Source: a bacterium
Lineage (GTDB): Bacteria; Zhuqueibacterota; Zhuqueibacteria; Oceanimicrobiales; Oceanimicrobiaceae
Length of the DNA stretch: 13,248 nt
Assembly (NCBI GenBank): GCA_046757025.1
Contig: JBHHXN010000147.1
Location: 1-13,248 of the forward strand
Direction: 5' to 3'
A program made the position numbers and the translations under genes. This document shows, piece after piece, positions 1-13,248 of this stretch. Position 1 is the stretch's first letter, and each line of letters opens with the position of its first letter. The notes beneath the pieces are model-generated. The model saw only the letters and a program-made list of their open reading frames with translations, had not been told where the DNA came from and did not search any database.

Positions 1-832
1 AACAGGTCACAATTTGTCCGCTCCAGGATAACGAAGCCCCTGACCGAGTCGGGCCGGTCTTGCCAAAATGTAATCCCACCGGCAGAACGTCGGCAGCGTT
101 CACGACGCCGTCATTGTTGGTGTCCCCGGGCCAAACGAAACAGCCACAGCGAATGGTGGTTTTAGCGGCTACCGGGGTTAAGTTAATGGCATTGCCAATT
201 GGGTCATTTGCTGAAATATTCGATAGAGACCAGTTTATGTCTGTCGGGTCTGGAGTATTCACCTGAGATACAAATTTTATCCACACGACCGCGCCGCTGC
301 CACTCACCCCTCCCTGACCAGACTTGCGGCTCACACCTACGCTTACCTTTCCGCTGGCGTCATCGGGTGTGGCAATAAATATCAGATCGCCGCCAAGAAA
401 GTTTCCGGGGCCGATTACAGGGTTGGTGGACTGGGCGGAGACATAATCGATGTAGGTGGTCTGGTAGGTTAAATCAAAACTAACGCCGAACAGAACCGTG
501 ACCGGGTCTGGATCGCCGACGTCCACCGCGACCCAGAATTCCTTTCCACATCGCGCGGTTGAGGGCGCGTCGGGTTTTATGGAAACCGCCTGGAGAGGAG
601 TAGAGGTAGTGGTATACCAGAAACCGATTAAATGAATGTGGGACGAGCTGCTTGATACCCCGATGACATCCTGCCCCAATGTTCCAACCATGCGGTAACT
701 GTTGTTGCTGATCACGGCACCCCCATTGCCAAGCACACTTTTCGACACAGCATATTGGGCTTCAGCAGGCTTCTGGAGCGTCAGGCCAGCAACAAAAGCC
801 ATCAGCGTCAAAGTTAATATTAGCTTTTCCAT
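1..832 (-). CDS. Secreted cohesin + dockerin-like domain protein, runs off the window (3' truncated)
   Basis: Not in the ORF track; translated by hand as 277 open codons from ATG 832, with SD GGAAGGAG at 840-847. Signal peptide MEKLILTLTLMAFVAGLTLQKPAEA|Q. N-domain QYAVSKSVLGNGG...VGTLGQ...LIGFWY (614-757). Cohesin-like region (GKEFWVAVDV, LFGVSFDLTY, GNFLG, GKVSVGVS, GVSGSGAVVWIKF). Dockerin-like Ca-loop WPGDTNNDGVVNAADV (~86-133). Confidence 0.85.
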   Translation of the reverse strand, partial: MEKLILTLTLMAFVAGLTLQKPAEAQYAVSKSVLGNGGAVISNNSYRMVGTLGQDVIGVSSSSSHIHLIGFWYTTTSTPLQAVSIKPDAPSTARCGKEFWVAVDVGDPDPVTVLFGVSFDLTYQTTYIDYVSAQSTNPVIGPGNFLGGDLIFIATPDDASGKVSVGVSRKSGQGGVSGSGAVVWIKFVSQVNTPDPTDINWSLSNISANDPIGNAINLTPVAAKTTIRCGCFVWPGDTNNDGVVNAADVLPVGLHFGKTGPTRSGASLSWSGQIVTC

Positions 833-903
833 GGGTATTCTCCTTCCAATCATCGTGGCAACAAGTCCACTATAAACTGATTTGTTCATAAGATCAGATC
901 TCT

Positions 904-981
904 CAATTCAGGAATTGCAGATTTCAGATTGCGGTACAGATGCTCCCAATCCGCAATCTACATTCCGCAGTCCGCAATTGA
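904..981. repeat. Inverted arrays of degenerate heptamers (imperfect hairpin) just downstream of the protease stop
   Basis: Left arm ggaattg-cagattt-cagattg (911-931); right arm caatccg-caatcta-cattccg-cagtccg-caattga (947-981). The arms are approximately reverse-complementary. Confidence 0.65.
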
Positions 982-982
982 A

Positions 983-2542
983 TCAATTCCCAATAACGGC
1001 ATTTCCATTTCGCCATCCCTTCAATGTAACCAGCGTATTGATAATCAATTTCTCAGGATAAAATCCACCGGCGATCCTTATGGTTCGCGGCGGTTCTATA
1101 ATGGCGTTTATCCCCTCGATGACTGTATTGAAAGGATTGGATTGTGAGCCATATTCAAAACCGTTGTTGGCCTGGTCAACGAAAATCGGCGGCATGCGAA
1201 CTTTGAAAGTCATCGTTGGACCTGCCGGTGAAATGTCATAGATTTCAATATAACTGGCGGTTGCATTCGTCCAGCCTGTATTTCTTGGAGTAGAAGTGGC
1301 CGTGAAATCATAACCCTGGACCTTATCGATTCCGTTCCAGAGAGCCAGGCTGTCATTGTGCCAGGTGGTTGGCCAATGTCCCTCCCGTCGAATGAGACGA
1401 ATGACTTTACGCAAATTGGTCTCATTTTCATTAACCAGCCAGACGGCCAGTCCCTGATCATCCAACGCCTCCTGGTTGCGATTTTCTAAAATGAAATATT
1501 CCTTATAAGGATCATTTTGGAGCGGATCGTAGATAATAATTGCTTCGGGCTGGCTATCCTGCAGCGGAAAAGTTCGCTCGGTCTCTGCATCATAAAGAGT
1601 GTAAGTCCCATCGTGGGTGACAATCAGTGGCTTGACGAAACCCAGGTGGATTTTAGCCCACGGATCTAAATGGAGAATGCGCCACTCCGGATACAGCGCC
1701 ATAAAACTATATGGCCCTGGCGGAGGCGGAAGCCAGTCGGTATTATTATTGACGAGATAACCATCTGCAACGTGCGTGTTAGGAGTCGCCTCGTACAAGT
1801 CTCCCAAGCCGAGAATCTGGTGGCCCAGCTCATGGGCCATGGTGCCAACATGCTCATGTTCAGTGGCAGCCGCGATTGCCTGGCTGACATTGAGCTTATT
1901 TCCTTCTACCGGCACCGGGCTGGGATTCGTGGCCCGGACGTTGGCGCCACCGCTGGCAGCTGCATTGACCAGAATAACAGCCAGCTCATCTTTGGTAATC
2001 ACGCTGTCGCCGTTGCCACGCGGCGGCATATCATAAATCGCATAATCGAATAGAGGGTCGGCAATTCTGATCGCTTCCGCACGTTTCTGCTGAATTTCGA
2101 TCAAATCACAGCAATAATCGCCATAGGTGGCTTGTGTGGTACGCCAGCCAATAATGCCGTCTTTTGTCCCATCTAGGTCGCCGTCCGTTGCCGGCACCAG
2201 CAGCAAACGCCCATTGGAGTTTTCTCTGTAAATTTCAGCAACACTTGGCCTGCCATTCGCCCGGTTCTGGCCAAAAAACAGATCATCAAAGTGAGCCACA
2301 TCGTGCGCCGCTTGATGTTGAACGTCTGTGAATTCCATCAGCACCACCAAAAGCGGGCGCTCGACCACGGTATTCTGATTGGCAAAAAGTTCAGGCGTTG
2401 TAATAGCGCCGTTAACACCAGGGTGTGGTTGGTTGGGATGGGCGAACTGGCGCCACAATTGTCCGTAGGCTGTGCGAACCAGTGACGAGTGCATTCCGGC
2501 AATCAGGATGATAGCTCCTATGAAAAAACGGTATCTTTGCAT
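983..2542 (-). CDS. Secreted M6 (immune inhibitor A-like) zinc metalloprotease with C-terminal DUF1565-like module
   Basis: PLLVVLMEFTD, SVAEIYRENSNG, zinc motif HELGHQILGLGDLY (HELGH at 1820-1834), Met-turn YSFMA, PWAKIHLGF, EYFILENR. ATG 2542 with GGAG at 2551-2554 gives signal peptide MQRYRFFIGAIILIAGMHSSLVRTAYG|Q; the track start at 2599 overlaps the upstream gene. Confidence 0.85.
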   Translation of the reverse strand: MQRYRFFIGAIILIAGMHSSLVRTAYGQLWRQFAHPNQPHPGVNGAITTPELFANQNTVVERPLLVVLMEFTDVQHQAAHDVAHFDDLFFGQNRANGRPSVAEIYRENSNGRLLLVPATDGDLDGTKDGIIGWRTTQATYGDYCCDLIEIQQKRAEAIRIADPLFDYAIYDMPPRGNGDSVITKDELAVILVNAAASGGANVRATNPSPVPVEGNKLNVSQAIAAATEHEHVGTMAHELGHQILGLGDLYEATPNTHVADGYLVNNNTDWLPPPPGPYSFMALYPEWRILHLDPWAKIHLGFVKPLIVTHDGTYTLYDAETERTFPLQDSQPEAIIIYDPLQNDPYKEYFILENRNQEALDDQGLAVWLVNENETNLRKVIRLIRREGHWPTTWHNDSLALWNGIDKVQGYDFTATSTPRNTGWTNATASYIEIYDISPAGPTMTFKVRMPPIFVDQANNGFEYGSQSNPFNTVIEGINAIIEPPRTIRIAGGFYPEKLIINTLVTLKGWRNGNAVIGN

Positions 2543-2564
2543 GATATATTCTCCGAAAATAACA

Positions 2565-3758
2565 TTAGTTACCGATGCGAACGGTTCCTCCCTTAGCAAC
2601 CAATCTTATGCGCTTGGAAAGAATTAACGATTCTGCGTAGGTACCTGCCTTGATACTGATTTGAGCCCCGTCCCAGGCCATCGCGTATGCCTCGACGACG
2701 GTATCGAACGGTTGATTGGGCTTTCCCCGTTCTGTTCCGCTGTACGCGTAGTTGACGTAAATCTTGTTGGTATAATGCCTGATATAGACGTCATCGCTTA
2801 TGTCATTATCGAGCAACAGAACATGGAGTTGCCCTGAAATGTTTGGCGCCCGGCCGTCGTCCAGATCCCAGATGGTAAGCCCTTCTGGTTCTTCGCATTG
2901 ACTGCTGCCAAATGGCGGACTGCAATCAGGGTCATAACCGTACCAGAACGGCTGCGCGCCATCCCTGGTGGATTTGATGATCCTGCGTTTCGTCTGCATG
3001 TCGAACACACTGATTCCGTCTTGGTGAGTATCATAATCGCCGAAATACCCATTATTCATATAGAGCAGTTTTCCACTCTCCGAGAATGTTGCGCCCTGAC
3101 CACCTATCAACAAAGGTGAGCCGGATTCGTCAAGGAGCCGCAATTCGCCAGCATATTGAAGAGACATGGTGCCATTCTGCGCCAAAGCGTGCCAGTCGAG
3201 ATCATAAATATATACCCATCCAGGCGCATCTTCATGAGGCGCATAAACCAGCCCATTCACATCCACGGCAACCCATGGCGCATTCCCTGGCTGGGACAAA
3301 TGCTGCGGCAACTTTAGAGTTGCATGAGCGATGTACTGAAGATTGTCGGGATTGAAAGCCGCTACGGCAGGGGGCACGGCTCTGTCCTTATCTTCCAGTG
3401 CAAGAAGTAGAAATCCGGTGGACTCGTTGTACTGGTAGTAGTCGATATCACCAACATGATTATAGGCATTTATACTATTCAGATTCCCACAAGCCACTCC
3501 GGAAACGCCGCAGGCTATGGGCCCGGCCAGGTCAAGGTTAACGGGTATTTTCCACAAACCCCACTCCTGGGAAATAAACCAGTTGTTTTTGTCGTGCGCC
3601 AAACCCTGGACGTTACCAGCGTAGTTTGTTTCCGCCTCATCGGGACGCGTGCTAGTGTAGTTAAAGTAGGATTCATACAAAGCCTGCGCCGCTGCCTCGT
3701 GCGGGGTTGCCAGTGGCGCAAGAACGCAAGCCAATACAAATGCCTTTGCTATTTTCAT
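2565..3758 (-). CDS. Secreted hypothetical protein, probable beta-propeller + C-terminal DUF1565-like module (paralogue B)
   Basis: ATG 3758 with SD GAGGAG; signal peptide MKIAKAFVLACVLAPLATPHEAAA|Q. Blade-like motifs VQGLAHD, HVGDIDY, PWVAVD, GQGATFS, EEPEG. Collinear with 5095..6381. The fold is inferred. Confidence 0.8.
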   Translation of the reverse strand: MKIAKAFVLACVLAPLATPHEAAAQALYESYFNYTSTRPDEAETNYAGNVQGLAHDKNNWFISQEWGLWKIPVNLDLAGPIACGVSGVACGNLNSINAYNHVGDIDYYQYNESTGFLLLALEDKDRAVPPAVAAFNPDNLQYIAHATLKLPQHLSQPGNAPWVAVDVNGLVYAPHEDAPGWVYIYDLDWHALAQNGTMSLQYAGELRLLDESGSPLLIGGQGATFSESGKLLYMNNGYFGDYDTHQDGISVFDMQTKRRIIKSTRDGAQPFWYGYDPDCSPPFGSSQCEEPEGLTIWDLDDGRAPNISGQLHVLLLDNDISDDVYIRHYTNKIYVNYAYSGTERGKPNQPFDTVVEAYAMAWDGAQISIKAGTYAESLILSKRIRLVAKGGTVRIGN

Positions 3759-3871
3759 CTTATCACTCCTCATTCTCAGGTGCTGGAGTTGAATCATTAC
3801 CGCCCACAGCAGATGTATCATGAAATATTTCGAATCCATTTTTGACTCGACTGCCTCTTTGGCTTTGCAAC

Positions 3872-5071
3872 CTAGCGGCGGATCAGCTTGTATTTCCCAT
3901 ACAGGCCCCAGTGGTCTGATGATTGATTGGTCGTCAAGCCATCTTCGCTCAGGGTGCGGCCGATAAACGGCAAGACTTCCACAGTTGTGGGGATGACCTC
4001 GACCGAGCCGGCGTGACTGGGGAGGTAGAAGATGTAGTCAAGGCGGCCGCTGACCGCTTCATCGTCGAAATACGTTGCCAGTGGATTGCAGTCGCAGTAC
4101 GTCGTATGTTGGGCGCCGGTAAAATCGAATCCCGGGCTGTTGCGATCCGAATCCCGGCCGCCGGCCTGAGCGCCCATTCGCGGAATGAGCACGTTGTAGT
4201 ACTCAGACTGCTCGCCGTACACATTGAAGTCGCCCATGGCAAATACCACGTGATCAGGATGCGAGGCTCGATAGTTGGCGATCGCGTCCCGGAGTTGGGC
4301 TATTTGTGCAGAACGCGCCTCGAGGTCGCTGCTGCTATAGTCTGCCTGGGTGTGCGTGTTGAACAAGCCAATGGCGAAGCCATTCTTGTAAATCGTCGCC
4401 TGCACCCAGCCTTTGGCCGCGTTTGGTTCAAAGGTACCTGCCTCCTCTTCATACTCCACCTGCGCAAAACCAACCAGGGGGTACTTGCTCATTAATGCAA
4501 GTCCCGAGTTGAGAATGTCTCCTTCTATGTCCCCGTGATCACCATGAGGGTATCCCGAGCGTGGACGGATTCCATTGGCGCCATCGCCGCCGAAAAACAG
4601 GTCTTCGTCCCAGATCTCTTGAAAACCGACAACATCCGGGCTGGGGTTAGGGCCGCCGAAAAAATCGGCGATGTCGTCCGCACGCTCATAATCTTGCCAG
4701 CTCGGCATGAATACCTCATCTCCGGCCAGGTGGGTATTCAGGATAATAATCTCCAGCGTCGTCGCCGCCTGATAGCCGAGCTTCCCGATGACAGCGCTGC
4801 CGCCGGCAGCCGTTAAAACAACCGGCGTGTCTGTCGTGAAGGTTTCGTAATACTTGCCGGCCGCGATTTCAACAGTGCGGGCCGGCGAAGTCAAAGTCCG
4901 GACAATGCCGGCTTCGACCATTTGATACGGTTTGGCCTGAGAGCCATCCGGATCGGGACTGCCGGCTTTCGTCACATAAATGGCGTTCTGGGCAATAGCA
5001 CTGGCTGACATCCCCAACAACAAAGGGACCGTCAGCTCTATGATGTTTAAATGATAGCGAAAGCTTTGCAT
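3872..5071 (-). CDS. Secreted EEP-superfamily phosphodiesterase (sphingomyelinase C-like) with N-terminal DUF1565-like module
   Basis: EEP motifs LNTHL, DVVGFQEIW, NSGLALMSKYP, KGW, FNTHTQA, GDFNV, RLDYIF, SDHWG. ATG 5071 with GGAG at 5081-5084 is preferred; ATG 5095 overlapping the upstream TGA is an alternative. Signal ...LLLGMSASAIA|Q. Substrate not determinable from sequence. Confidence 0.85.
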   Translation of the reverse strand: MQSFRYHLNIIELTVPLLLGMSASAIAQNAIYVTKAGSPDPDGSQAKPYQMVEAGIVRTLTSPARTVEIAAGKYYETFTTDTPVVLTAAGGSAVIGKLGYQAATTLEIIILNTHLAGDEVFMPSWQDYERADDIADFFGGPNPSPDVVGFQEIWDEDLFFGGDGANGIRPRSGYPHGDHGDIEGDILNSGLALMSKYPLVGFAQVEYEEEAGTFEPNAAKGWVQATIYKNGFAIGLFNTHTQADYSSSDLEARSAQIAQLRDAIANYRASHPDHVVFAMGDFNVYGEQSEYYNVLIPRMGAQAGGRDSDRNSPGFDFTGAQHTTYCDCNPLATYFDDEAVSGRLDYIFYLPSHAGSVEVIPTTVEVLPFIGRTLSEDGLTTNQSSDHWGLYGKYKLIRR

Positions 5072-5094
5072 ACTAAATTTCTCCAAAATGAACA

Positions 5095-6381
5095 TCAATT
5101 CCCGATTATGACCGTCCCTCCCTCGGCGATTAGCCTGATCCGTTTGGAGAGAATCAACGATTCCGGATAGAAGCCGGCCTTAATTTTCATTTGCGCGCCA
5201 TCCCAGATCGGGTAGTGATTGTAAGCCTTACTTATTGTTTTGAAAGGCTGAGAAGGCGACCCATACTCGTTGCCCGTATGGGCGTCATCAACATGGATGA
5301 TTCCGCTATAATGCTTGAGGTAAATTTCATCGGCACTCGCGTCATTATCCAGCAAAAGAACATGAAGTTGTCCTGTAATTCCCGGAGCTCTACCGTCGTC
5401 CAGGTCCCAGATGGTGCTCCCTTCCGGCTCTTCCGATTCACCAGGCCATGTGCCGGGGTTGAAGTCGTAATTGAAGTAGCCATAGCCGTCGGTGGAATGT
5501 GCTACTCTGCGCCCGGTTTGCATGTCAAAAACATTTATGCCATCGTGTGCATAATGGTCATCATAAAAACCAGTCACAATGTAGAGCAGGTTTCCACTTT
5601 CTGAGATCACCCCGCCCTGTATATGCGTGAGCGTGAGCGAATTGCCGGATTCATCGAGAAATGCGAATTCACCATTTGGCTGCAATTTCACCTGGTTTGG
5701 CACAAGATCCCATCTCAATTTGTATATCTCACATTTATTGACTTGCCAATCGGAGGTATATACGCGACCGTTGGGATCGATTGCACACCATCCCGCGCTT
5801 GTACCGCCACTCAACTCGGCATGTCCGACGAAACCGAGATCTCGGGCTCGAAAAACAGCCAAGAGCCCGGCTGGGCCTCTTGTTACCGGTATGACCAGAT
5901 ACACCTCGCCATCATGATTCTCATTTTTATAGTAGCTAAGATCGCCAAAATGATCGTAGCCTTTACTGGCAAGCTCGGGTATGTCATCGAGTGATATCCG
6001 TAGAACTCCCGGAGTATGGGGTGAGACGGAGCCAAGATTTTGAGTTACCGGAATTTTCCATAACGACCGTTCTGCAGGATCCTCATCGTCTGCGTCTGAT
6101 TGCGTGATAAACCAGTTGCTATCATCATGGGTTATCCCCTGAACGTCTTCATGGTATCCAGGATTGACATCGTTTGGATAATTGCCCAAATACAGAAAGT
6201 AGCTTTCGTAGCCATCCTGGGCAATGCCAATTCTCCAAAAGAGTGTTAGAAAAAGCGCTGTTATGGCGATTCCGGTTCGCGCTGCTAATTTATGGTTCAA
6301 TACTCCGAAATCCCGGTCGGTTCGTCGAAGCGATAGCAGCCACCCCCCTTGTCCGCTTGTATTTGTTGCCATTTCTCTCAT
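5095..6381 (-). CDS. Secreted hypothetical protein, probable beta-propeller + C-terminal DUF1565-like module (paralogue A)
   Basis: 428 aa ORF with YESYF, VQGITHD, LWKIPV, HFGDLSYY, IQGG, EEPEGSTIWDLDDGRAPGITGQLHVLLLDND. Hydrophobic stretch IAITALFLTLFWRIGIA|Q. Start uncertain: about 35 residues precede the h-region. Confidence 0.8.
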   Translation of the reverse strand: MREMATNTSGQGGWLLSLRRTDRDFGVLNHKLAARTGIAITALFLTLFWRIGIAQDGYESYFLYLGNYPNDVNPGYHEDVQGITHDDSNWFITQSDADDEDPAERSLWKIPVTQNLGSVSPHTPGVLRISLDDIPELASKGYDHFGDLSYYKNENHDGEVYLVIPVTRGPAGLLAVFRARDLGFVGHAELSGGTSAGWCAIDPNGRVYTSDWQVNKCEIYKLRWDLVPNQVKLQPNGEFAFLDESGNSLTLTHIQGGVISESGNLLYIVTGFYDDHYAHDGINVFDMQTGRRVAHSTDGYGYFNYDFNPGTWPGESEEPEGSTIWDLDDGRAPGITGQLHVLLLDNDASADEIYLKHYSGIIHVDDAHTGNEYGSPSQPFKTISKAYNHYPIWDGAQMKIKAGFYPESLILSKRIRLIAEGGTVIIGN

Positions 6382-6394
6382 GGTTCGCTCTCTC

Positions 6395-8035
6395 TTACTG
6401 CAACGTTACCAACACAAGGACAAGCCCTTTACCATGAGTCAGCGGGGTCATCGCCTTGCCGATGATGGCGCCGCTGGCTTGTGAGTGATCTGACACTTTC
6501 ATCGCGTGGCCGGGCGTTTCAGAAGTGGTTAGCAAATCGCCTACTTCAATGACGCCATTGGAAGCATCGGCATAGCAGTAGACGCGGCCTGTCAAAGCAA
6601 CCGGGTACTGTCCATCGGCTACTGAGCCGAATTGTCCCATGAGCATGCCCGGTTTAACGCCGCCCGCGCCGCTGATGATGCCCGCCACTTTGCGGTCATA
6701 AACCTGGCTGCTGACCACGAGCTTGCCGGGATTTTCCGCATCGATGGAGACCACCATGCCCGGCTGAATTTGTTGCTGAGCAGAATTAGCTCCGCCGACC
6801 TGATTCGCCACTACATCAAACTGTTCGGAGAGGTCTGAGCCGCCGGTTATCTCCAGGACTTTGGTGGTGGTCTTACCGTTCTCGTCAACCGTACAAACGT
6901 CATTCCCACCAGAATTTTTAACCCTGAAGACGCCATTTTCTCCACCATTATTGTCAAGCCTCACGATGACATCATAGTTGCTTGACAGGATCAAGACGCT
7001 GTTCGGAATGGATGGGTCGGTATTGATTCTTCCTATGATGCCGCCAAGACCCAGGTCAGCGTGGTCATTATCACTGGAGAAAAAGCCACCGAAATCGGTG
7101 GTCCCTTTTCCCCAAACCCCGTAGCCGCTGCCGGTACTCACGCCAAACACACCGTTGCCGTCGCTGTTGACGCCATATACTGCGGAAAAAAGCGAGCTAT
7201 TGTTGTGGCCCTCTATGGCGCCACCCCCACCTTCATTAACGCCGAATATCGCAGAGGTCAGGGCTGCGCTAGTTATGCCCCAAACAGCTTTGCCATCGAC
7301 GCTTCGTCCAAAGACGCCGGTGCCAAAACCATCGGCTGAGCCATGCACGCCGTAGCCTTCATGACTAAAGCCGCGTACACCAGCAGATTCTGTAAAAGGG
7401 CCCTCAGCGAACCCCATAAGGCCATGCAGGTTCAGACCTTCAAGAGCCGCTCCTGTCCCAAATTGGTGAACTTCAACCCCCCCGTCTTCACTTCCAACTT
7501 GCCCTTTGAAGGGCAAACTCAATCCTGTTGCCGCTGGTTTATCCCACACCACATTCGAACCGTTGTACATAAGAGCTTGACCGGCAGATGCGCCCGTTGT
7601 ATTAAGCTTTGACGTCGTAACCGCACCATCAGCAATTTTGTTGCTCGTCACAGCATTATCTACTATCGACCGCGCCTGCAAGCCATAAGCCGAGGCGGTA
7701 AGTTGTATCCGTGGCGAAAGCTCTGTGCCTGTGCCCACGGTGATGCCAAGCCAATAGGGTTTATCAAAAGGTCTGTTCAACGGATTCGCGCTTCCTAACC
7801 TCACATTGAAAATACCATGGCTTATAGCTGCAACCTGCGACTCAGACCAGATGGATGTTCCACCAGATGCCGCTTCGTACAGCTTGAAGGTCAGGGTGTA
7901 ATTGCCATCTGAGACCACGTTGCCACTAACATCGGTTAACACCCCCTGGTAACTGATGGTTTGAGGAACCTGCCCCCAAAGGAATGGCACAGTTAATACG
8001 GAAAACAGTGTGCAGAGAAAAAGTGTCCGATTCAT
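6395..8035 (-). CDS. Secreted tail-fibre-like protein with Gly-rich repeats and C-terminal peptidase G2-like intramolecular chaperone
   Basis: SD AAGGAGG at 8043-8049. Signal peptide then QVPQTISYQGVLTD...LTFKLY...GIFNVRLG. 10-aa repeats IVDNAVTSNK/IADGAVTTSK. (G/A)VxG repeats every ~10-12 aa (~7080-7480). C-domain GGSDLSEQF...PGMVVSID...GIISG...VALTGRV...GDLLTTS...IIGKAM. Confidence 0.75.
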   Translation of the reverse strand: MNRTLFLCTLFSVLTVPFLWGQVPQTISYQGVLTDVSGNVVSDGNYTLTFKLYEAASGGTSIWSESQVAAISHGIFNVRLGSANPLNRPFDKPYWLGITVGTGTELSPRIQLTASAYGLQARSIVDNAVTSNKIADGAVTTSKLNTTGASAGQALMYNGSNVVWDKPAATGLSLPFKGQVGSEDGGVEVHQFGTGAALEGLNLHGLMGFAEGPFTESAGVRGFSHEGYGVHGSADGFGTGVFGRSVDGKAVWGITSAALTSAIFGVNEGGGGAIEGHNNSSLFSAVYGVNSDGNGVFGVSTGSGYGVWGKGTTDFGGFFSSDNDHADLGLGGIIGRINTDPSIPNSVLILSSNYDVIVRLDNNGGENGVFRVKNSGGNDVCTVDENGKTTTKVLEITGGSDLSEQFDVVANQVGGANSAQQQIQPGMVVSIDAENPGKLVVSSQVYDRKVAGIISGAGGVKPGMLMGQFGSVADGQYPVALTGRVYCYADASNGVIEVGDLLTTSETPGHAMKVSDHSQASGAIIGKAMTPLTHGKGLVLVLVTLQ

Positions 8036-8080
8036 GGCTTTGCCTCCTTGTTTGAGGTTAGTTTATCTGATTTCTATTTA

Positions 8081-8226
8081 GTGTCCATCCGTAATCGCAT
8101 TCCCGAATGCTCCCTGCTTAAAACATACAGGGACAAGCTTGTCGGGAATCTCATGCCTAACTGACCAATGGGTTCCCGCTTAAAGATTGCGGGAATGACA
8201 AAAAAAGGTTCTTTACGGATGGACAC
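8081..8226. mobile_element. 146 bp MITE-like non-autonomous element
   Basis: Perfect 14 bp terminal inverted repeats GTGTCCATCCGTAA (8081-8094) / TTACGGATGGACAC (8213-8226). Direct repeat TATTTA flanks both sides (8075-8080, 8227-8232). No ORF; internal palindromes. Confidence 0.8.
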
Positions 8227-8387
8227 TATTTAGATTACGCTTAAGGGTCCGCAATTACCCAAAAATGTTTTATTTCAACAACAAAAGCTTTTTTTTTAAA
8301 CAACATCTTTATTTTGCCAAAACTTGACATTATAGTATTACCACGAACTTTTACATTTTTATGCAAAATATCCCCAAAGCCTTATGA

Positions 8388-8684: not shown

Positions 8685-9314
8685 TCAAATCTCACCCCGA
8701 AGGGATTTGCTGATAACCTCAGCTTTGCAGTGGACATGCAGTTTTTTGTAGATGTTTTTAATGTGGGTGCGGACGGTTTCTATGGAGATGAACATGCGAT
8801 CGGCGATCATTTTATAACTCAAACCATCGACCAGTCCAATTACAATCTCTCTTTCTTTGTCGGTCAGGGGAGATTCAGAATTTTTAGACTTTTGTGGTTG
8901 GAAATACTCGATGACTTTGCGGGCAATTTGCGGCGTCATTGGAGCACCGCCAGCATATAAAACTTCTATTGCTTGTTTGATTTCCGCAAAAGGCCTGTTT
9001 TTTAATAGATACCCTGAAGCACCAGCACAAAGGGATTGGAATATTTTATGGGAATCATCATAGATGGTGAGCATGATAATGTCGATATCTGGAAATTTCT
9101 CCTTGATCAATTTGATGCCATCAATTCCAGACATTCCAGGCAAGCCTATATCCATGAGGATAACATCAGGAAAATTATCTTCATTGATTTTGACAATAAA
9201 TTTTTCTACAGAACCTTCAACCAGTTCACACAAAAATTCTTGTTGGTCATTTAAATATCCCTGAATGGCCTGGCACACCTCGTGGTCATCTTCTATTATC
9301 GCGACATTTATCAT
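8685..9314 (-). CDS. NarL/FixJ (LuxR-type HTH) response regulator
   Basis: REC domain IIEDD, DVILMDIGLPGMSG, IMLT, GASGYLLK. HTH LTDKEREIV...GLSYKMIADRMFISIETVRTHIKNIYKKLHV. Confidence 0.95.
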   Translation of the reverse strand: MINVAIIEDDHEVCQAIQGYLNDQQEFLCELVEGSVEKFIVKINEDNFPDVILMDIGLPGMSGIDGIKLIKEKFPDIDIIMLTIYDDSHKIFQSLCAGASGYLLKNRPFAEIKQAIEVLYAGGAPMTPQIARKVIEYFQPQKSKNSESPLTDKEREIVIGLVDGLSYKMIADRMFISIETVRTHIKNIYKKLHVHCKAEVISKSLRGEI

Positions 9315-9320
9315 GGTACA

Positions 9321-9349
9321 ATTATATCACATTTTTTGACAAGTGTAAA
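9321..9349 (-). promoter_or_regulatory. sigma70-type promoter of the response regulator (probably leaderless transcript)
   Basis: Minus strand TTTACA (9349-9344), 17 nt spacer, TATAAT (9326-9321) with extended TGn. Only 6 nt to ATG 9314, and no SD. Confidence 0.7.
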
Positions 9350-9366
9350 TCCCATGAATATGGGAT
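9349..9366. promoter_or_regulatory. Perfect 7-4-7 palindrome, candidate autoregulatory box
   Basis: ATCCCAT-gaat-ATGGGAT overlapping the first base of the -35 element. Confidence 0.65.
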
Positions 9367-9473
9367 AAATTGAGAATTCATCAACTGCTGATGCCATTTA
9401 TAAACCCAAATTAATGGCTTCCTGCTTTAAAAACTGCGGGAGAGACGACGGGGTGAATTGTTACGAAACTTTT

Positions 9474-12400
9474 TTACACCGCTTTCATTTTTAGAATCAC
9501 TTTTGTTTCGTCCTGGTGTGAAATTACTAAATCCGCTCTGAGCCGTTTTGCTCGCATGCGCATATTCTTCAATCCATTACCTACTCGTATTTTGCTTTCA
9601 TCAAATCCTTTTCCGTCGTCTGAAATCGTCAAATAAAATTCACTACCTTTATTATTTAAATGAATATGAACGTTTTTTGCAGACGAATGCCGGGCGATGT
9701 TATTAATGGTTTCTTTGAAAATCAAATATAAATTTTGTCGAATACCTGCGGGCAGGATTTTGGCACAATCCAGTCCATCTGATTGAAAAGTTACTTTGAT
9801 CTGTTTTGGTGAAAGCGTATTCATTGCAAAATCACGCATTCGATCGAGCAGGTCACCAATCGTATCGTTTCGGGAATCAATGGACCAGACGATATCGCTC
9901 ATGGTCGTGACAATCTCACGACTCATCTCGCCAATTTTTTTGGCAGAAGATAAGATTTTACTGTTCTCATTCGTTGTCTGTATGATTTCCGAATGTACAG
10001 CAATCTTTGTCAGAGTTGACCCGATGTCATCATGCAAATCACTAGCTAAGCGTGTGCGGATTCGCTCCAATTCCAGACGTCGAGATATCCGATAATTATG
10101 GAAAAGAATGATAGTACCTGCAATGGCAGCAAATAATAAGATTTGAAACCACCAGGTTTGCCAAAATGGTGGTGTGATTATGATTTTGATCGCAGTCCCG
10201 GTTTCATTCCAAACCCCATCATTATTTGAAGCCTTTACACGAAATATGTATTTCCCTGGATCAAGATTGGTGTAGGTAGCAAAACGCCGTGTTTCTGAAT
10301 AATACCAATCTTCATCGAAACCTTCCATTTTATATGCATACTCATTCTTCTCCGGACTATTATAATCCAACGCTGCAAACTCGAAGGAAAAAACATCATC
10401 TTTATAGGAAAGCACAATTTCATCAGTTTCAGAAATATGTTTTATTAAAGGTGTACTGCCGTCGGGAGAAATTTTTATGGTTTTGTTGGCGATTTGGAAA
10501 TCGGTAATTACTACAGGAGGGATAGTCGGATTATCTTCAATACTATCGGGATAAAAACTATTAAAACCATTAACACCCCCGAAGAACATCTCTCCGTTGC
10601 GACTATTAAAAAAGGCACCTCGATTGAATTCATTGCTTTGTAATCCGTCATACACATCATAATTTCGAAATGTTTTTGATTTCGGATTAAATTTTGACAC
10701 TCCTTTTTTCGTGCTCAGCCAAAGATTTCCGCTCGCATCCTCAAGGATACCGCAAATATTGTCATTGGGCAGTCCATCTTTTTCAGTATATCTATTAAAT
10801 CTCCTAGTTTTCGGATCGAATCGATTGAGTCCTCCTTCAGTACCAACCCAGATGGTTTCGGAGTTGTCTTCAAAAATACACTGCACAAAATTATTACTCA
10901 AACTTGTAGAATCATCGGGATTGTTTATCCAATGTGTAACTGTACCGGTTTCTCGATTGAATAAATTTATCCCACCGCCGCCGGTACCCAACCAGAGCCT
11001 TCCGGCTTGATCTTCATAAAAGCAACGAACATCGTTATTATTGAGTCCCTCACGTTTTCCAGCTTCATGGACAAAATGATTAAACATTACTTTTTTTTTG
11101 CCATCCCAAATCATTTGATTCAACCCGCCTGCATGCGTCCCTATCCACAAAACACTGCTACTATCGGTTGTATCTTCAAAAAAAGATAGGACATACTTTT
11201 GATTTAAACCTTTCCCGAAAACAGTGTGGATGCCGTAGGCGTAAGGCCAGGGGACGAACTTTTTCGTTTTCCGATCAAATTGAAGGAATTTACCGCCATA
11301 GGTTCCAAGCCAGAGTATCTTATATGAATCTTCAAAAATGGCGATGATGTTGTTGACTTGTGGATAATATATGTCTATGCCCAACCCCTCAATGTCTCCG
11401 CGTTGGCTAATCCAATGTTTAAATTTGCCGGTCTCGCGATCGAATTGATTTAATCCACCGCCGTAAGTTCCGATCCAAATAGCGCCGGATTCGTCTTCAT
11501 ATATAGCTCTGACATCATTATTGCTTAAACTACTGGAGTCACCAGTAACATATAGCCAATGCAAAAATCTATTCTCGGCGCCACGATTACGCCCAACCTT
11601 ACAAACGCCTCCGCCAGAAGTGCCAATCCAAAGAACACCGGCTCTATCTTCAAAAATGGTAGTGACTTCATTATCACTTAAACTGCTTGGTTTACCAGGT
11701 TCCGTCAACCATTGCGTAAAGATTGCTGTTTCTGGATTAAAACAATTGAGGCCGCCTCCATCCGTTGCAATCCAGAGCAGGCCTGAATTATCTACATATA
11801 GAGAATTGAGATAATTATTACTCAAACTTAATGGATTGTCTGATTCGTTTAACCAGTGGGTGAAGGTTTCTTTTTGCAAGTCGAATCGATTGAGACCGCC
11901 GCCATGTGTTCCCAGCCAGAGTACTTTTCTATATATATTCGCACTGTCCTCAGAAGATCGATTTGCACATATGGCATTTATCCAATCATTGCTCAAACTA
12001 TTGGGATTTCGAGGATCATGAATCCAATGTTTAAAGGTTTCTGTTTGAGGATCAAACCTGACCAGACCACCCCCTTCCGGTCCTAGCCAGAGCACATCAG
12101 ATTGGTCTGCATAAATACAAGCTATTGCATTGGATCTTACACTGTCAGGATTTTCGGGACCGTGGCGCCAATGTGTGAATTTTGTGGTTTCTGAATGCTG
12201 TTCTATGGTCGTTGAATCGGTACTTAATATGAGTCGGTTCAGCCCGCCGCCCTCCGTTCCGATCCAGAGCACATTTTTGTTGTACGGATCAACCAATAAA
12301 GATAATACATAATCGTCACTTAAACTGTAAGGATCGTTTTCTCGATGTCTGAAGGTGTTAAAAGAATCTGTTTCGCGATTAAAGCGTGCCAGACCGCCGC

Positions 12401-12731
12401 CGTAAGTACCAATCCACAGCGCACCAGATGTATCTTCAACAATTGCTCGAATTTCATTTCTGCTCAGACTCTTCGGATTATTGGAGTCATGTTTATAAGT
12501 CGTAAAGCGGTAGCCATCATATTTACTCAGTCCAGCATTTGTACCAAACCACATAAATCCTTTACTATCCTGAAAGATGCAATTAACAATACTTGGAGAT
12601 AAACCCTGATCATGGGTGAGGCGTTCAAATTTGAGCTTGAGGTTCTGGGCTATTCCCAAGCTGCTAAAAGAAAATAGTAAACAAACAGAAAGAAAGATTA
12701 TGCTCATTGAACGAATCAATTTTATTTGCAT
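9474..12731 (-). CDS. Sensor histidine kinase: Reg_prop beta-propellers, Y_Y_Y, TM, HisKA_3, HATPase
   Basis: Many LWIGTxGGGL / SLSxNxV repeats. Y_Y_Y: YAYKMEGFDEDW...YTNLDPGKYIFRVKASNNDG. TM WWFQILLFAAIAGTIILF. H-box RLASDLHDDIG, N-box ETINNIARHS, DDGKGF, GNGLKNMRMRA. Confidence 0.95.
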   Translation of the reverse strand: MQIKLIRSMSIIFLSVCLLFSFSSLGIAQNLKLKFERLTHDQGLSPSIVNCIFQDSKGFMWFGTNAGLSKYDGYRFTTYKHDSNNPKSLSRNEIRAIVEDTSGALWIGTYGGGLARFNRETDSFNTFRHRENDPYSLSDDYVLSLLVDPYNKNVLWIGTEGGGLNRLILSTDSTTIEQHSETTKFTHWRHGPENPDSVRSNAIACIYADQSDVLWLGPEGGGLVRFDPQTETFKHWIHDPRNPNSLSNDWINAICANRSSEDSANIYRKVLWLGTHGGGLNRFDLQKETFTHWLNESDNPLSLSNNYLNSLYVDNSGLLWIATDGGGLNCFNPETAIFTQWLTEPGKPSSLSDNEVTTIFEDRAGVLWIGTSGGGVCKVGRNRGAENRFLHWLYVTGDSSSLSNNDVRAIYEDESGAIWIGTYGGGLNQFDRETGKFKHWISQRGDIEGLGIDIYYPQVNNIIAIFEDSYKILWLGTYGGKFLQFDRKTKKFVPWPYAYGIHTVFGKGLNQKYVLSFFEDTTDSSSVLWIGTHAGGLNQMIWDGKKKVMFNHFVHEAGKREGLNNNDVRCFYEDQAGRLWLGTGGGGINLFNRETGTVTHWINNPDDSTSLSNNFVQCIFEDNSETIWVGTEGGLNRFDPKTRRFNRYTEKDGLPNDNICGILEDASGNLWLSTKKGVSKFNPKSKTFRNYDVYDGLQSNEFNRGAFFNSRNGEMFFGGVNGFNSFYPDSIEDNPTIPPVVITDFQIANKTIKISPDGSTPLIKHISETDEIVLSYKDDVFSFEFAALDYNSPEKNEYAYKMEGFDEDWYYSETRRFATYTNLDPGKYIFRVKASNNDGVWNETGTAIKIIITPPFWQTWWFQILLFAAIAGTIILFHNYRISRRLELERIRTRLASDLHDDIGSTLTKIAVHSEIIQTTNENSKILSSAKKIGEMSREIVTTMSDIVWSIDSRNDTIGDLLDRMRDFAMNTLSPKQIKVTFQSDGLDCAKILPAGIRQNLYLIFKETINNIARHSSAKNVHIHLNNKGSEFYLTISDDGKGFDESKIRVGNGLKNMRMRAKRLRADLVISHQDETKVILKMKAV

Positions 12732-12947: not shown

Positions 12948-13248
12948 CTATTTCAAAAACATCATTTTGCGTGTTGCCGTAAACTCACCAACATGCACCG
13001 TGTAAAAATAAAGTCCGGAGGAAAGCCACTCGCCCTGATTATTTTTTCCATCCCACAGCACTGAATAAACACCCGGAGCTTTGTCCTCATCCATTAAAGT
13101 GCGCATAATTTGTCCCTTGATGTTATAAATTTTCAAGCTGACCTTCACTCCACCGATATATTTCCTGGGCACTGTGAAGTTAATTGTTGTGGTTGGATTA
13201 AACGGATTGGGATAATTCTGGGACAGCGTAAAGGTTTCTGGTGCTGCG
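12948..13248 (-). CDS. C-terminus of a T9SS type A sorting / FlgD-Ig domain protein (5' truncated)
   Basis: Frame is open to the window edge: AAPETFTLSQNYPNPFNPTTTINFTVP...VSLKIYNIKGQIMRTL...GVYSVLWDGKNNQGEWLSSGLYFY...TRKMMFLK*. Confidence 0.9.
   Translation of the reverse strand, partial: AAPETFTLSQNYPNPFNPTTTINFTVPRKYIGGVKVSLKIYNIKGQIMRTLMDEDKAPGVYSVLWDGKNNQGEWLSSGLYFYTVHVGEFTATRKMMFLK

What the first reader, a model, noticed from the sequence alone, without database searches (positions are those of the whole stretch)
1..8035. Candidate modular surface system: self-processing fibre + four identically tagged secreted proteins + cohesin/dockerin anchor
Seen: six co-directional, closely spaced genes, all with signal peptides. 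The first is fibre-like, the last has cohesin and dockerin domains, and the four between share one ~65 aa module. None of the five complete proteins ends in the T9SS-type CTD seen at 12948-13248. Established: cohesin-dockerin pairs assemble multienzyme complexes, and G2-type chaperones fold trimeric fibres. Inference: the operon builds a scaffolded complex displaying a protease and a phospholipase-like enzyme, for attack on or scavenging of cells or membranes. I know of no described system with this layout, but could not search.
Basis: partly seen in the sequence, partly recalled or inferred. Interest (0 to 1): 0.85.

Follow-up and report, generated by a model that had tools for sequence, protein, structure and literature searches.

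The report
Enzyme-tipped, self-cleaving bacterial surface fibre
This gene cluster encodes a secreted phage-like fibre with a predicted self-cleaving tip, followed by four secreted proteins that share one short tag; the same tip type is followed by tagged enzymes in many unrelated bacteria, so the tag likely docks interchangeable enzymes onto the fibre tip, a display system I could not find described.

Summary
In detail: six co-directional, apparently secreted ORFs, four sharing a ~66-aa module. That module is the N-terminal cap plus about one rung of a parallel beta-helix, left as a stub. The fibre's C-terminal domain folds like the phi29 gp12 autochaperone (Z 12.3) and keeps the Asp/Glu motif.

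The conserved link is tag to one clade of that tip domain. Tagged genes follow this tip in 21 of 22 evaluable genome loci and 54 of 61 metagenome loci. They follow 0 of 38 sister tips. About 20 unrelated cargo families carry the tag, mostly peptidases. Genomes with no T9SS match also have the module.

The cohesin/dockerin scaffold idea is not supported: no Pfam cohesin in 56 partner proteins. The last gene's conserved part is its 'GFW' N-peptide, which tracks the fibre's MAT-like N-domain.

Best model (0.55): after the chaperone cleaves off, the stub caps the fibre's beta-helix end, as PAAR caps VgrG and gp38 caps gp37. Earlier AI notes of this scan saw the same module on other DNA. My paper searches found no description.

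The parts
6395..8035 (-). g1: secreted trimeric-type fibre (546 aa): signal peptide, SYQG N-domain, Gly-rich GVxG repeats, beta-stalk, G2-type tip
7664..7975 (-). g1 N-domain (aa 21-124), distantly MAT-like; inferred partner of the GFW peptide
   Evidence: NF053851 Bdello_MAT_N E 1.4e-4, 21.7 bits against a cut-off of 60; co-occurrence with GFW
6836..6877 (-). Conserved last strand before the predicted cleavage site (aa 387-400, VLEITGG motif); predicted mature tip and inferred docking site
   Evidence: conserved while the upstream stalk varies
6398..6835 (-). G2-type autochaperone domain (aa 401-546), phi29 gp12 C-terminal fold; D401 and E404 invariant
   Evidence: 3gqh Z 12.3, rmsd 3.0, 111 aligned, D401 aligned to gp12 residue 692; 3suc top Foldseek hit; invariant in 94 of 94 sequences
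5095..6381 (-). g2: beta-propeller of the glutaminyl-cyclase/YjiK fold with C-terminal tag; activity unknown
   Evidence: AF2 pLDDT 95; 3mbr Z 21.6, rmsd 2.8, 229 aligned
5098..5301 (-). tag of g2 (beta-helix cap stub)
3872..5098 (-). g3: N-terminal tag plus EEP phosphodiesterase (sphingomyelinase-like); motif residues present; likely start 5071
   Evidence: PF03372 E 3.8e-14; TIGR03395 below cut-off; motifs
4781..4990 (-). tag of g3
2565..3839 (-). g4: propeller paralogue of g2 (45% identical) with C-terminal tag; likely start 3758
2568..2765 (-). tag of g4
983..2599 (-). g5: M6-like zinc metalloprotease (HELGH at 1820-1834) with C-terminal tag; likely start 2542
   Evidence: TIGR03296 E 6e-20, below cut-off
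986..1186 (-). tag of g5
2..889 (-). g6: GFW-peptide adaptor with cohesin-fold domain and dockerin-like loop; cut by the contig end; likely start 832
602..757 (-). GFW N-peptide of g6 (GTxGQ...GFW); the conserved part, tracks the fibre N-domain
146..595 (-). cohesin-fold domain of g6; accessory, not found in other cargo loci

Best explanation
The operon likely builds an enzyme-tipped surface fibre: g1 is predicted to trimerise with help from its phi29-gp12-type C-terminal chaperone and to cleave it off between S400 and D401, after which the beta-helix stub carried by g2-g5 would cap the exposed end of the fibre and hold an interchangeable hydrolase away from the cell. Shown: the genes, the domain folds, the tag, and the tight genomic link between the tag and one clade of tip domains. 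Inferred from phi29 gp12: trimerisation and self-cleavage. Inferred from co-occurrence and geometry: the stub's open last rung stacks on the three terminal strands by main-chain hydrogen bonds, likely one cargo per trimer, so the cell would display a mixture of tips. Inferred: the GFW peptide of g6 binds the fibre N-domain and, through its variable C-terminal part (often a T9SS CTD), would export or anchor the assembly. The cohesin/dockerin part is an accessory of this lineage. The cargo set, mostly peptidases plus phosphodiesterases, points to digesting protein- and lipid-rich particles or cells at a distance; whether that is scavenging or attack is not resolved.
For: Propeller-first: 31 of 39 loci with a tagged propeller have a G2-type gene, against 1 of 38 untagged. 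Tip-first, chosen without regard to tags: 21 of 22 evaluable VLEITGG-clade tips have a tagged gene within 2 kb downstream, against 0 of 38 tips outside the clade; the one miss is a frameshifted tag. Metagenomes: 54 of 61 evaluable. Phage relatives: 0 of 6. The cargo link maps to one G2 clade. 91 tagged proteins fall into 23 clusters and none has a CTD; they include trypsin, M12, astacin, M43, M36, C1, C10, C25, S8, EEP, Vps10/BNR and beta-lactamase-like domains. The tag is a beta-helix cap (8fqc E 1e-6, pectin methylesterases). A sub-clade with a different pre-cleavage end (ELGEG) has cargo with a different last rung. The catalytic-site Asp and Glu are invariant. The module occurs in genomes with no SprA or PorV match. 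Precedent for monomers capping trimeric beta-helix ends: PMC12407873 and bioRxiv 2026.05.12.724579.
Against: No inter-protein covariation was found: top MI-APC 0.22 against shuffled maxima up to 0.24 in 83 pairs, and tag-to-G2 distance correlation 0.047. The pre-cleavage strand and the G2 domain always travel together, so genomics cannot say which one is bound. Tagged propellers are mostly one clade (34 of 36), so the propeller-first count is not independent. In genomes picked for orphan cargo only 10 of 17 evaluable tips have a tagged gene downstream. Five tagged propellers have no fibre in their locus. Three trypsin+tag proteins carry their own T9SS CTD and have no G2 neighbour. The ELGEG cargo count (9 of 10) is circular. 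The cap motif itself is very common (24,382 representatives).
Confidence: 0.55

Rival explanations
1. The tag binds the G2 domain itself, a trimer of the capsid-decoration fold. Cargo would either sit on an uncleaved tip, or ride out with the fibre and be released with the chaperone when it cleaves: a piggy-back export and release system.
For: Cargo association follows the G2 clade exactly. G2 is about 60% identical across pairs. The fold is shared with capsid decoration proteins and the phi29 head-fibre base, which are docking trimers. Cargo lacks a CTD while 23 of 56 GFW partners have a CTD/FlgD domain.
Against: [quoted passage not shown] Four sister tips with similar G2 domains but different pre-cleavage ends (L127, L128, L180, L288) have no cargo. 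The module is present in an Anaerolineae genome with no T9SS match; that lineage is recalled as monoderm, where piggy-back export would not be needed.
Confidence: 0.27
2. There is no physical docking. The tag is a folding cap, or binds a third component (cell surface, substrate or an export factor), and the genes are simply co-inherited cassettes.
For: The cap motif is ubiquitous. No covariation. Tag plus own CTD without a fibre neighbour. Orphan cargo genes exist.
Against: About 20 unrelated enzyme families carry the stub beside one tip clade, and 0 of 38 sister tips have it. Three of the four genomes with orphan cargo have strong G2 matches elsewhere whose fetched copies carry the cargo-clade motif. 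Matches of that strength occur in only 3 of 151 Planctomycetota genomes sampled.
Confidence: 0.14
3. Cellulosome-like scaffold: the cohesin and dockerin of g6 organise the complex and the tag binds the cohesin.
For: g6 has a cohesin fold and a dockerin-like loop.
Against: 0 of 56 GFW partners in cargo loci have a Pfam cohesin (Pfam also misses g6's own). g6 matches those loci only through the GFW part. The tag is not a dockerin. The C83 paralogue and L130 have cohesin/dockerin but no tagged neighbours.
Confidence: 0.04

Closest known systems
Bdellovibrio MAT (mosaic adhesive trimer) fibres (PMC10769870, passages read)
   Same: Secreted phage-like trimeric fibres with a conserved N-domain after the signal peptide (weak NF053851 match) and variable stalks; some end in a self-cleaving chaperone.
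   Different: The chaperone here is phi29-type, not S74. The MAT tips described are part of the fibre chain, and the passages read mention no tagged enzyme partner. The paper says the N-domain's surface partner awaits identification; the GFW protein is a candidate here.
phi29 gp12 tailspike autochaperone (Peptidase_G2; PDB 3gqh, 3suc)
   Same: Same fold, register and D-x-x-E start of the released fragment; mature gp12 ends at residue 691 (PMC6542822 passages).
   Different: Chromosomal secreted fibre. No Pfam hit. Phage relatives have no tagged neighbours. The ATP site of gp12 (recalled) was not tested.
T-even/S16 gp37-gp38 fibre tip, and T4 gp5-gp5.4 / T6SS VgrG-PAAR tips (bioRxiv 2026.05.12.724579, PMC12407873; passages read)
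   Same: Works-like model: a separately encoded monomer caps a trimeric beta-helix end, after chaperone cleavage in gp37, and can carry effectors.
   Different: No PAAR family was listed for the window proteins or the cargo scanned. No contractile machine in the window. The cargo has signal peptides. The cap is a pectate-lyase-type beta-helix stub.
Cellulosome cohesin-dockerin scaffolds
   Same: g6 has a cohesin fold and a dockerin-like loop; many enzymes share one tag.
   Different: The enzyme tag is not a dockerin, there is one cohesin only, and it is not conserved with the tags.
Parallel beta-helix N-cap (DUF1565-like; pectin methylesterase and tailspike caps)
   Same: Sequence homology.
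   Different: The tag stops after about one rung and is usually the C-terminus (77 of 81).

Membership tests
MAT fibres | Conserved ~130-aa beta-rich N-domain after the signal peptide | tested here: inconclusive
   NF053851 E 1.4e-4, 21.7 bits against a cut-off of 60
MAT fibres | S74 chaperone (SDxxxK) or a folded adhesive tip domain | tested here: not met
   The C-terminus has the phi29 gp12 chaperone fold instead; no S74 Pfam hit
MAT fibres | Trimeric beta-helical fibre on the cell surface | not testable with these tools
   Only a monomer model of the last 200 aa; its residues 1-51 align weakly to Bd3182 (Z 4.5)
Peptidase_G2 autochaperone | Fold of the phi29 gp12 C-terminal domain | tested here: met
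   3gqh Z 12.3, rmsd 3.0, 111 aligned, but tied within 1 Z with a capsid decoration protein at 12.0; 3suc is the only Foldseek hit at E<0.001
Peptidase_G2 autochaperone | D-x-x-E motif at the cleavage site | tested here: met
   D401 aligns to residue 692; D401 and E404 invariant in 94 of 94. The catalytic role of gp12 E695 is recalled; the paper was not held.
Peptidase_G2 autochaperone | Pfam PF11962 match | tested here: not met
   0 of 32 members; one Atlas neighbour cluster has 12% PF11962
Peptidase_G2 autochaperone | Self-cleavage and release | not testable with these tools
   needs an experiment
Cellulosome | Enzymes carry dockerins | tested here: not met
   g2-g5 have no dockerin; the tag is a beta-helix cap
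Cellulosome | Cohesin scaffold conserved with the enzymes | tested here: not met
   0 of 56 partners by Pfam; no blastp match to g6's cohesin in the loci
T9SS substrate | C-terminal CTD on g1-g5 | tested here: not met
   g6's end is missing
T9SS substrate | Host encodes a T9SS | tested here: met
   SprA_N and PorV over cut-off in G000
VgrG-PAAR / gp37-gp38 tip loading | PAAR motif or gp38 homology in the cap | tested here: not met
   No PAAR family among the Pfam hits; PDB hits of the tag are beta-helix caps
VgrG-PAAR / gp37-gp38 tip loading | A monomer binds the trimeric beta-helix end | not tested

The most novel reading that the evidence does not exclude
A widespread, undescribed bacterial display system: a chromosomal phage-derived fibre whose chaperone-cleaved tip is a universal socket for any secreted enzyme carrying a one-rung beta-helix stub, while a GFW-peptide adaptor grips the MAT-like N-domain and supplies export or anchoring. 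It would be a non-injecting counterpart of VgrG-PAAR effector loading, and the GFW peptide would be a candidate for the sought partner of MAT-type N-domains.
Probability: 0.55. Interest if true: 0.9.

Novelty: categorically new. Interest (0 to 1): 0.8.

Why it matters
If the tag docks on the fibre tip, many uncultured anaerobic and environmental bacteria share a plug-and-play way to hold peptidases and lipases away from the cell. The module appears in Planctomycetota, KSB1, Chloroflexota, Acidobacteriota, Calditrichota, deltaproteobacteria and others. It would explain secreted enzymes that lack any known outer-membrane export signal, and give a function to a common orphan domain. It would extend phage tip-capping logic to cellular fibres and offer a 66-aa tag and socket pair for protein display. 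The test is small: two short fragments expressed in E. coli. The GFW link also gives a testable candidate for the unidentified partner of MAT-type N-domains.

Tried and rejected
Complex prediction of tag with fibre tip was not available, so there is no structural evidence either way. MI-APC on 83 fibre-tag pairs gave nothing above shuffles. The distance correlation for the pre-cleavage strand returned no value, and the tag-to-G2 value was 0.047. No RNA holder was listed, so co-transcription is untested. Promoter-like sites (11) and terminator-like sites (8) were at chance level. Sequence search of the PDB found nothing for g1 or the G2 alignment. The first search of 41 relatives with the 4-sequence tag profile found, outside the window, mostly caps inside large beta-helix proteins. 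The 1.84-billion-protein search was dominated by giant multi-cap proteins and said nothing on stand-alone stubs. My single-sequence cohesin profile was too insensitive (it missed L130's Pfam cohesin) and was not used for counts. Rejected: the tag as partner of the SYQG N-domain; cohesin as scaffold; the tag as a T9SS signal. Xiang et al. 2009 on gp12 was not held. Nine paper searches listed no description of the module; the library lacks most subscription papers. CASP16 passages (PMC12750041) were irrelevant.
Full report
Observation. The window is contig C147 of G000. Six minus-strand ORFs run from 8035 to the contig end, 13-150 nt apart. Each has a hydrophobic N-terminal stretch (no signal-peptide predictor was available). 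g2, g4 and g5 end in a ~66-aa module and g3 begins with it; its pairwise scores (58-202) exceed all 500 shuffles per pair (maxima 39-49). g3 is an EEP phosphodiesterase and g5 an M6-like protease with an intact HELGH motif. g2 and g4 are 45% identical, and g2's model is a propeller closest to glutaminyl cyclase and YjiK. g6 has a GFW N-peptide, a cohesin fold and a dockerin-like loop, and is cut off. g1-g5 have no T9SS CTD, although the genome has SprA and PorV and 168 ORFs ending in a CTD-like domain.

What the parts are. A profile of 66 tags matches the N-terminal cap of parallel beta-helices (tailspike 8fqc E 1e-6, pectin methylesterases). Such caps are common (24,382 representatives), but they normally start a long helix. 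Here the chain stops after about one rung. The last 146 aa of g1 get no Peptidase_G2 hit, but the model's best matches are phi29 gp12: 3suc by Foldseek and the C-terminal fragment 3gqh at Z 12.3, tied with a capsid decoration protein at 12.0. D401 aligns to residue 692, the first residue after mature gp12 (PMC6542822 passages). [quoted passage not shown] D401 and E404 are invariant in 94 aligned relatives while the stalk upstream varies. The g1 N-domain weakly matches the Bdellovibrio MAT N-domain, whose surface partner is unidentified (PMC10769870 passages).

The conserved link, propeller first. Of 77 genome loci with a g2 relative, 39 have a tagged propeller and 31 of those have a G2-type gene; 3 of the 8 misses have no upstream DNA. 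Of 38 untagged, 1 has such a gene, and there the propeller is cut by the contig end. This count is not independent: 34 of 36 tagged propellers fall in one 37-leaf clade.

The conserved link, tip first. I searched 167 genomes of the window's phylum and fetched all 33 other matches of 150 bits or more, plus 27 regions around the 68 weaker rows. I added 16 regions from a 151-genome Planctomycetota sample and from genomes behind earlier loci. The script dropped one duplicate sequence and the partial domains of L113, L129 and L179. In the VLEITGG clade, 21 of 22 evaluable tips have a tagged gene within 2 kb downstream; 3 more were too short to judge, and the miss, L106, has a frameshifted tag. Outside the clade the count is 0 of 38, with 3 too short. 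On the tree the cargo link is one clade. Its ELGEG branch has cargo ending in a different beta-stub with a conserved last rung. That count (9 of 10) is circular because the profile was built from these loci; the tenth has the motif internally. Of the best 79 metagenome loci (577 confirmed), 54 have a tagged gene downstream, 18 are too short and 7 have none. By eye or by position, 3 of those 7 do carry a divergent or internal tag. None of 6 phage relatives has a tag. In genomes picked for orphan cargo the link is looser: 10 of 17 evaluable tips have a downstream tag, 2 an upstream one and 5 none, with 3 too short.

Cargo. 91 tagged proteins beside such tips form 23 clusters, two of them tag-only fragments. 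77 of 81 standard tags are C-terminal and no cargo has a CTD. Pfam names include trypsin, reprolysin, astacin, M43, M36, C1, C10, C25, S8, EEP, Vps10/BNR and beta-lactamase-like domains. This repeated acquisition by unrelated domains is the independent evidence. Window-like layouts recur, such as fibre, M6+tag, GFW in L184 and tag+EEP in L194, L197, L207 and L221.

The last gene. In G000 the fibres on C99, C83 and C353 are followed directly by a GFW protein with no tagged gene, and only g1 has the G2 tip. Among 89 G2 loci with enough flank, a GFW gene is near 40 of 59 tips whose gene has the SYQG N-domain, and near 2 of 28 where the locus has none; 2 loci were intermediate. It is in 1 of 32 control loci (the GFW profile came from these loci). 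Of 56 GFW partners in cargo loci, 23 carry a T9SS-CTD/FlgD domain, 4 a weak dockerin and none a Pfam cohesin (Pfam also misses g6's own). g6 matches those loci only through its GFW part. So there appear to be two pairings, N-domain with GFW and tip with tag, and cohesin/dockerin is an accessory.

Mechanism. Trimerisation and cleavage at S400/D401 are inferred from gp12. Docking is inferred from the distribution. The mature end is favoured over the G2 domain for four reasons. The chaperone should leave. Four sister tips with a different pre-cleavage end lack cargo. The type of last rung changes with the type of fibre end. Monomers capping trimeric beta-helix ends through main-chain bonds are established for gp5.4 and PAAR, and gp38 binds the gp37 tip, in gp37's case after chaperone cleavage (PMC12407873 passages; bioRxiv 2026.05.12.724579 passages). 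The module is also in Phycisphaerales, Acidobacteria and Anaerolineae genomes with no SprA or PorV match (their completeness was not given), so the tag is not a T9SS signal.

Against. There is no covariation. The end strand and G2 never separate, so rival 1 stays open. Five tagged propellers have no fibre in their locus; three of their four genomes have cargo-clade tips elsewhere and one has only a sister type. Three trypsin+tag proteins have their own CTD and no G2 neighbour; two of their genomes had no G2 match and one only broken copies. No complex model and no RNA data were available.

Novelty. Nine paper searches (listings only, plus the passages cited) showed no description of the module; subscription papers and supplements were not seen. 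Two earlier AI notes of this scan describe the same fibre-plus-tagged-enzyme pairing on other DNA. I had stated my reading before that look-up, and they are not independent support. The system fails membership of cellulosomes and is at most a distant relative of MAT fibres. It likely works like phage and T6SS tip loading without being a member. Interest 0.8.

Noticed in passing
window 8079-8232: 154-bp repeat with long terminal inverted repeats (MITE-like; this label is from recall) just upstream of g1; 44 matches of 120 nt or more on 38 contigs of G000.
   Followed up: partly
window 8685-12731 (-): LuxR-type response regulator and a propeller/Y_Y_Y sensor kinase upstream and co-directional, at lower GC (about 0.30-0.44 against 0.44-0.57); a possible regulator of the operon.
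   Followed up: no
window 5104-5136 and 4981-5069, run X4: One contig has 9 differences clustered in the last codons of g2's tag and a joint beside it; possible cassette exchange at tag ends between strains.
   Followed up: no
G000 C58:12588-13097 (-): A SYQG-like N-domain followed by a short hydrophobic tail, lying among genes that look like cytochrome c maturation genes (by eye).
   Followed up: no
L105, L109, L117-L122, L125, L126: ELGEG sub-clade of tips whose cargo (C10 and C25 peptidases, among others) ends in a different beta-stub with a conserved last rung; may be a second tag/socket specificity.
   Followed up: partly
L158-L160: Trypsin-like proteins with the tag followed by their own T9SS CTD, with no fibre nearby.
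   Followed up: partly
L063, L172, L174, L052, L111-L116: The cargo-clade tip also sits on proteins without the SYQG N-domain: FG-GAP repeat proteins, a collagen-repeat protein and short ~270-aa proteins, so the tip module moves between scaffolds.
   Followed up: partly
P0173: One database protein joins a G2 tip to an astacin fragment plus tag; could be a deletion or an assembly artefact.
   Followed up: no
G322: One Phycisphaerae genome has 13 strong G2-tip matches, several followed by different tagged enzymes.
   Followed up: partly
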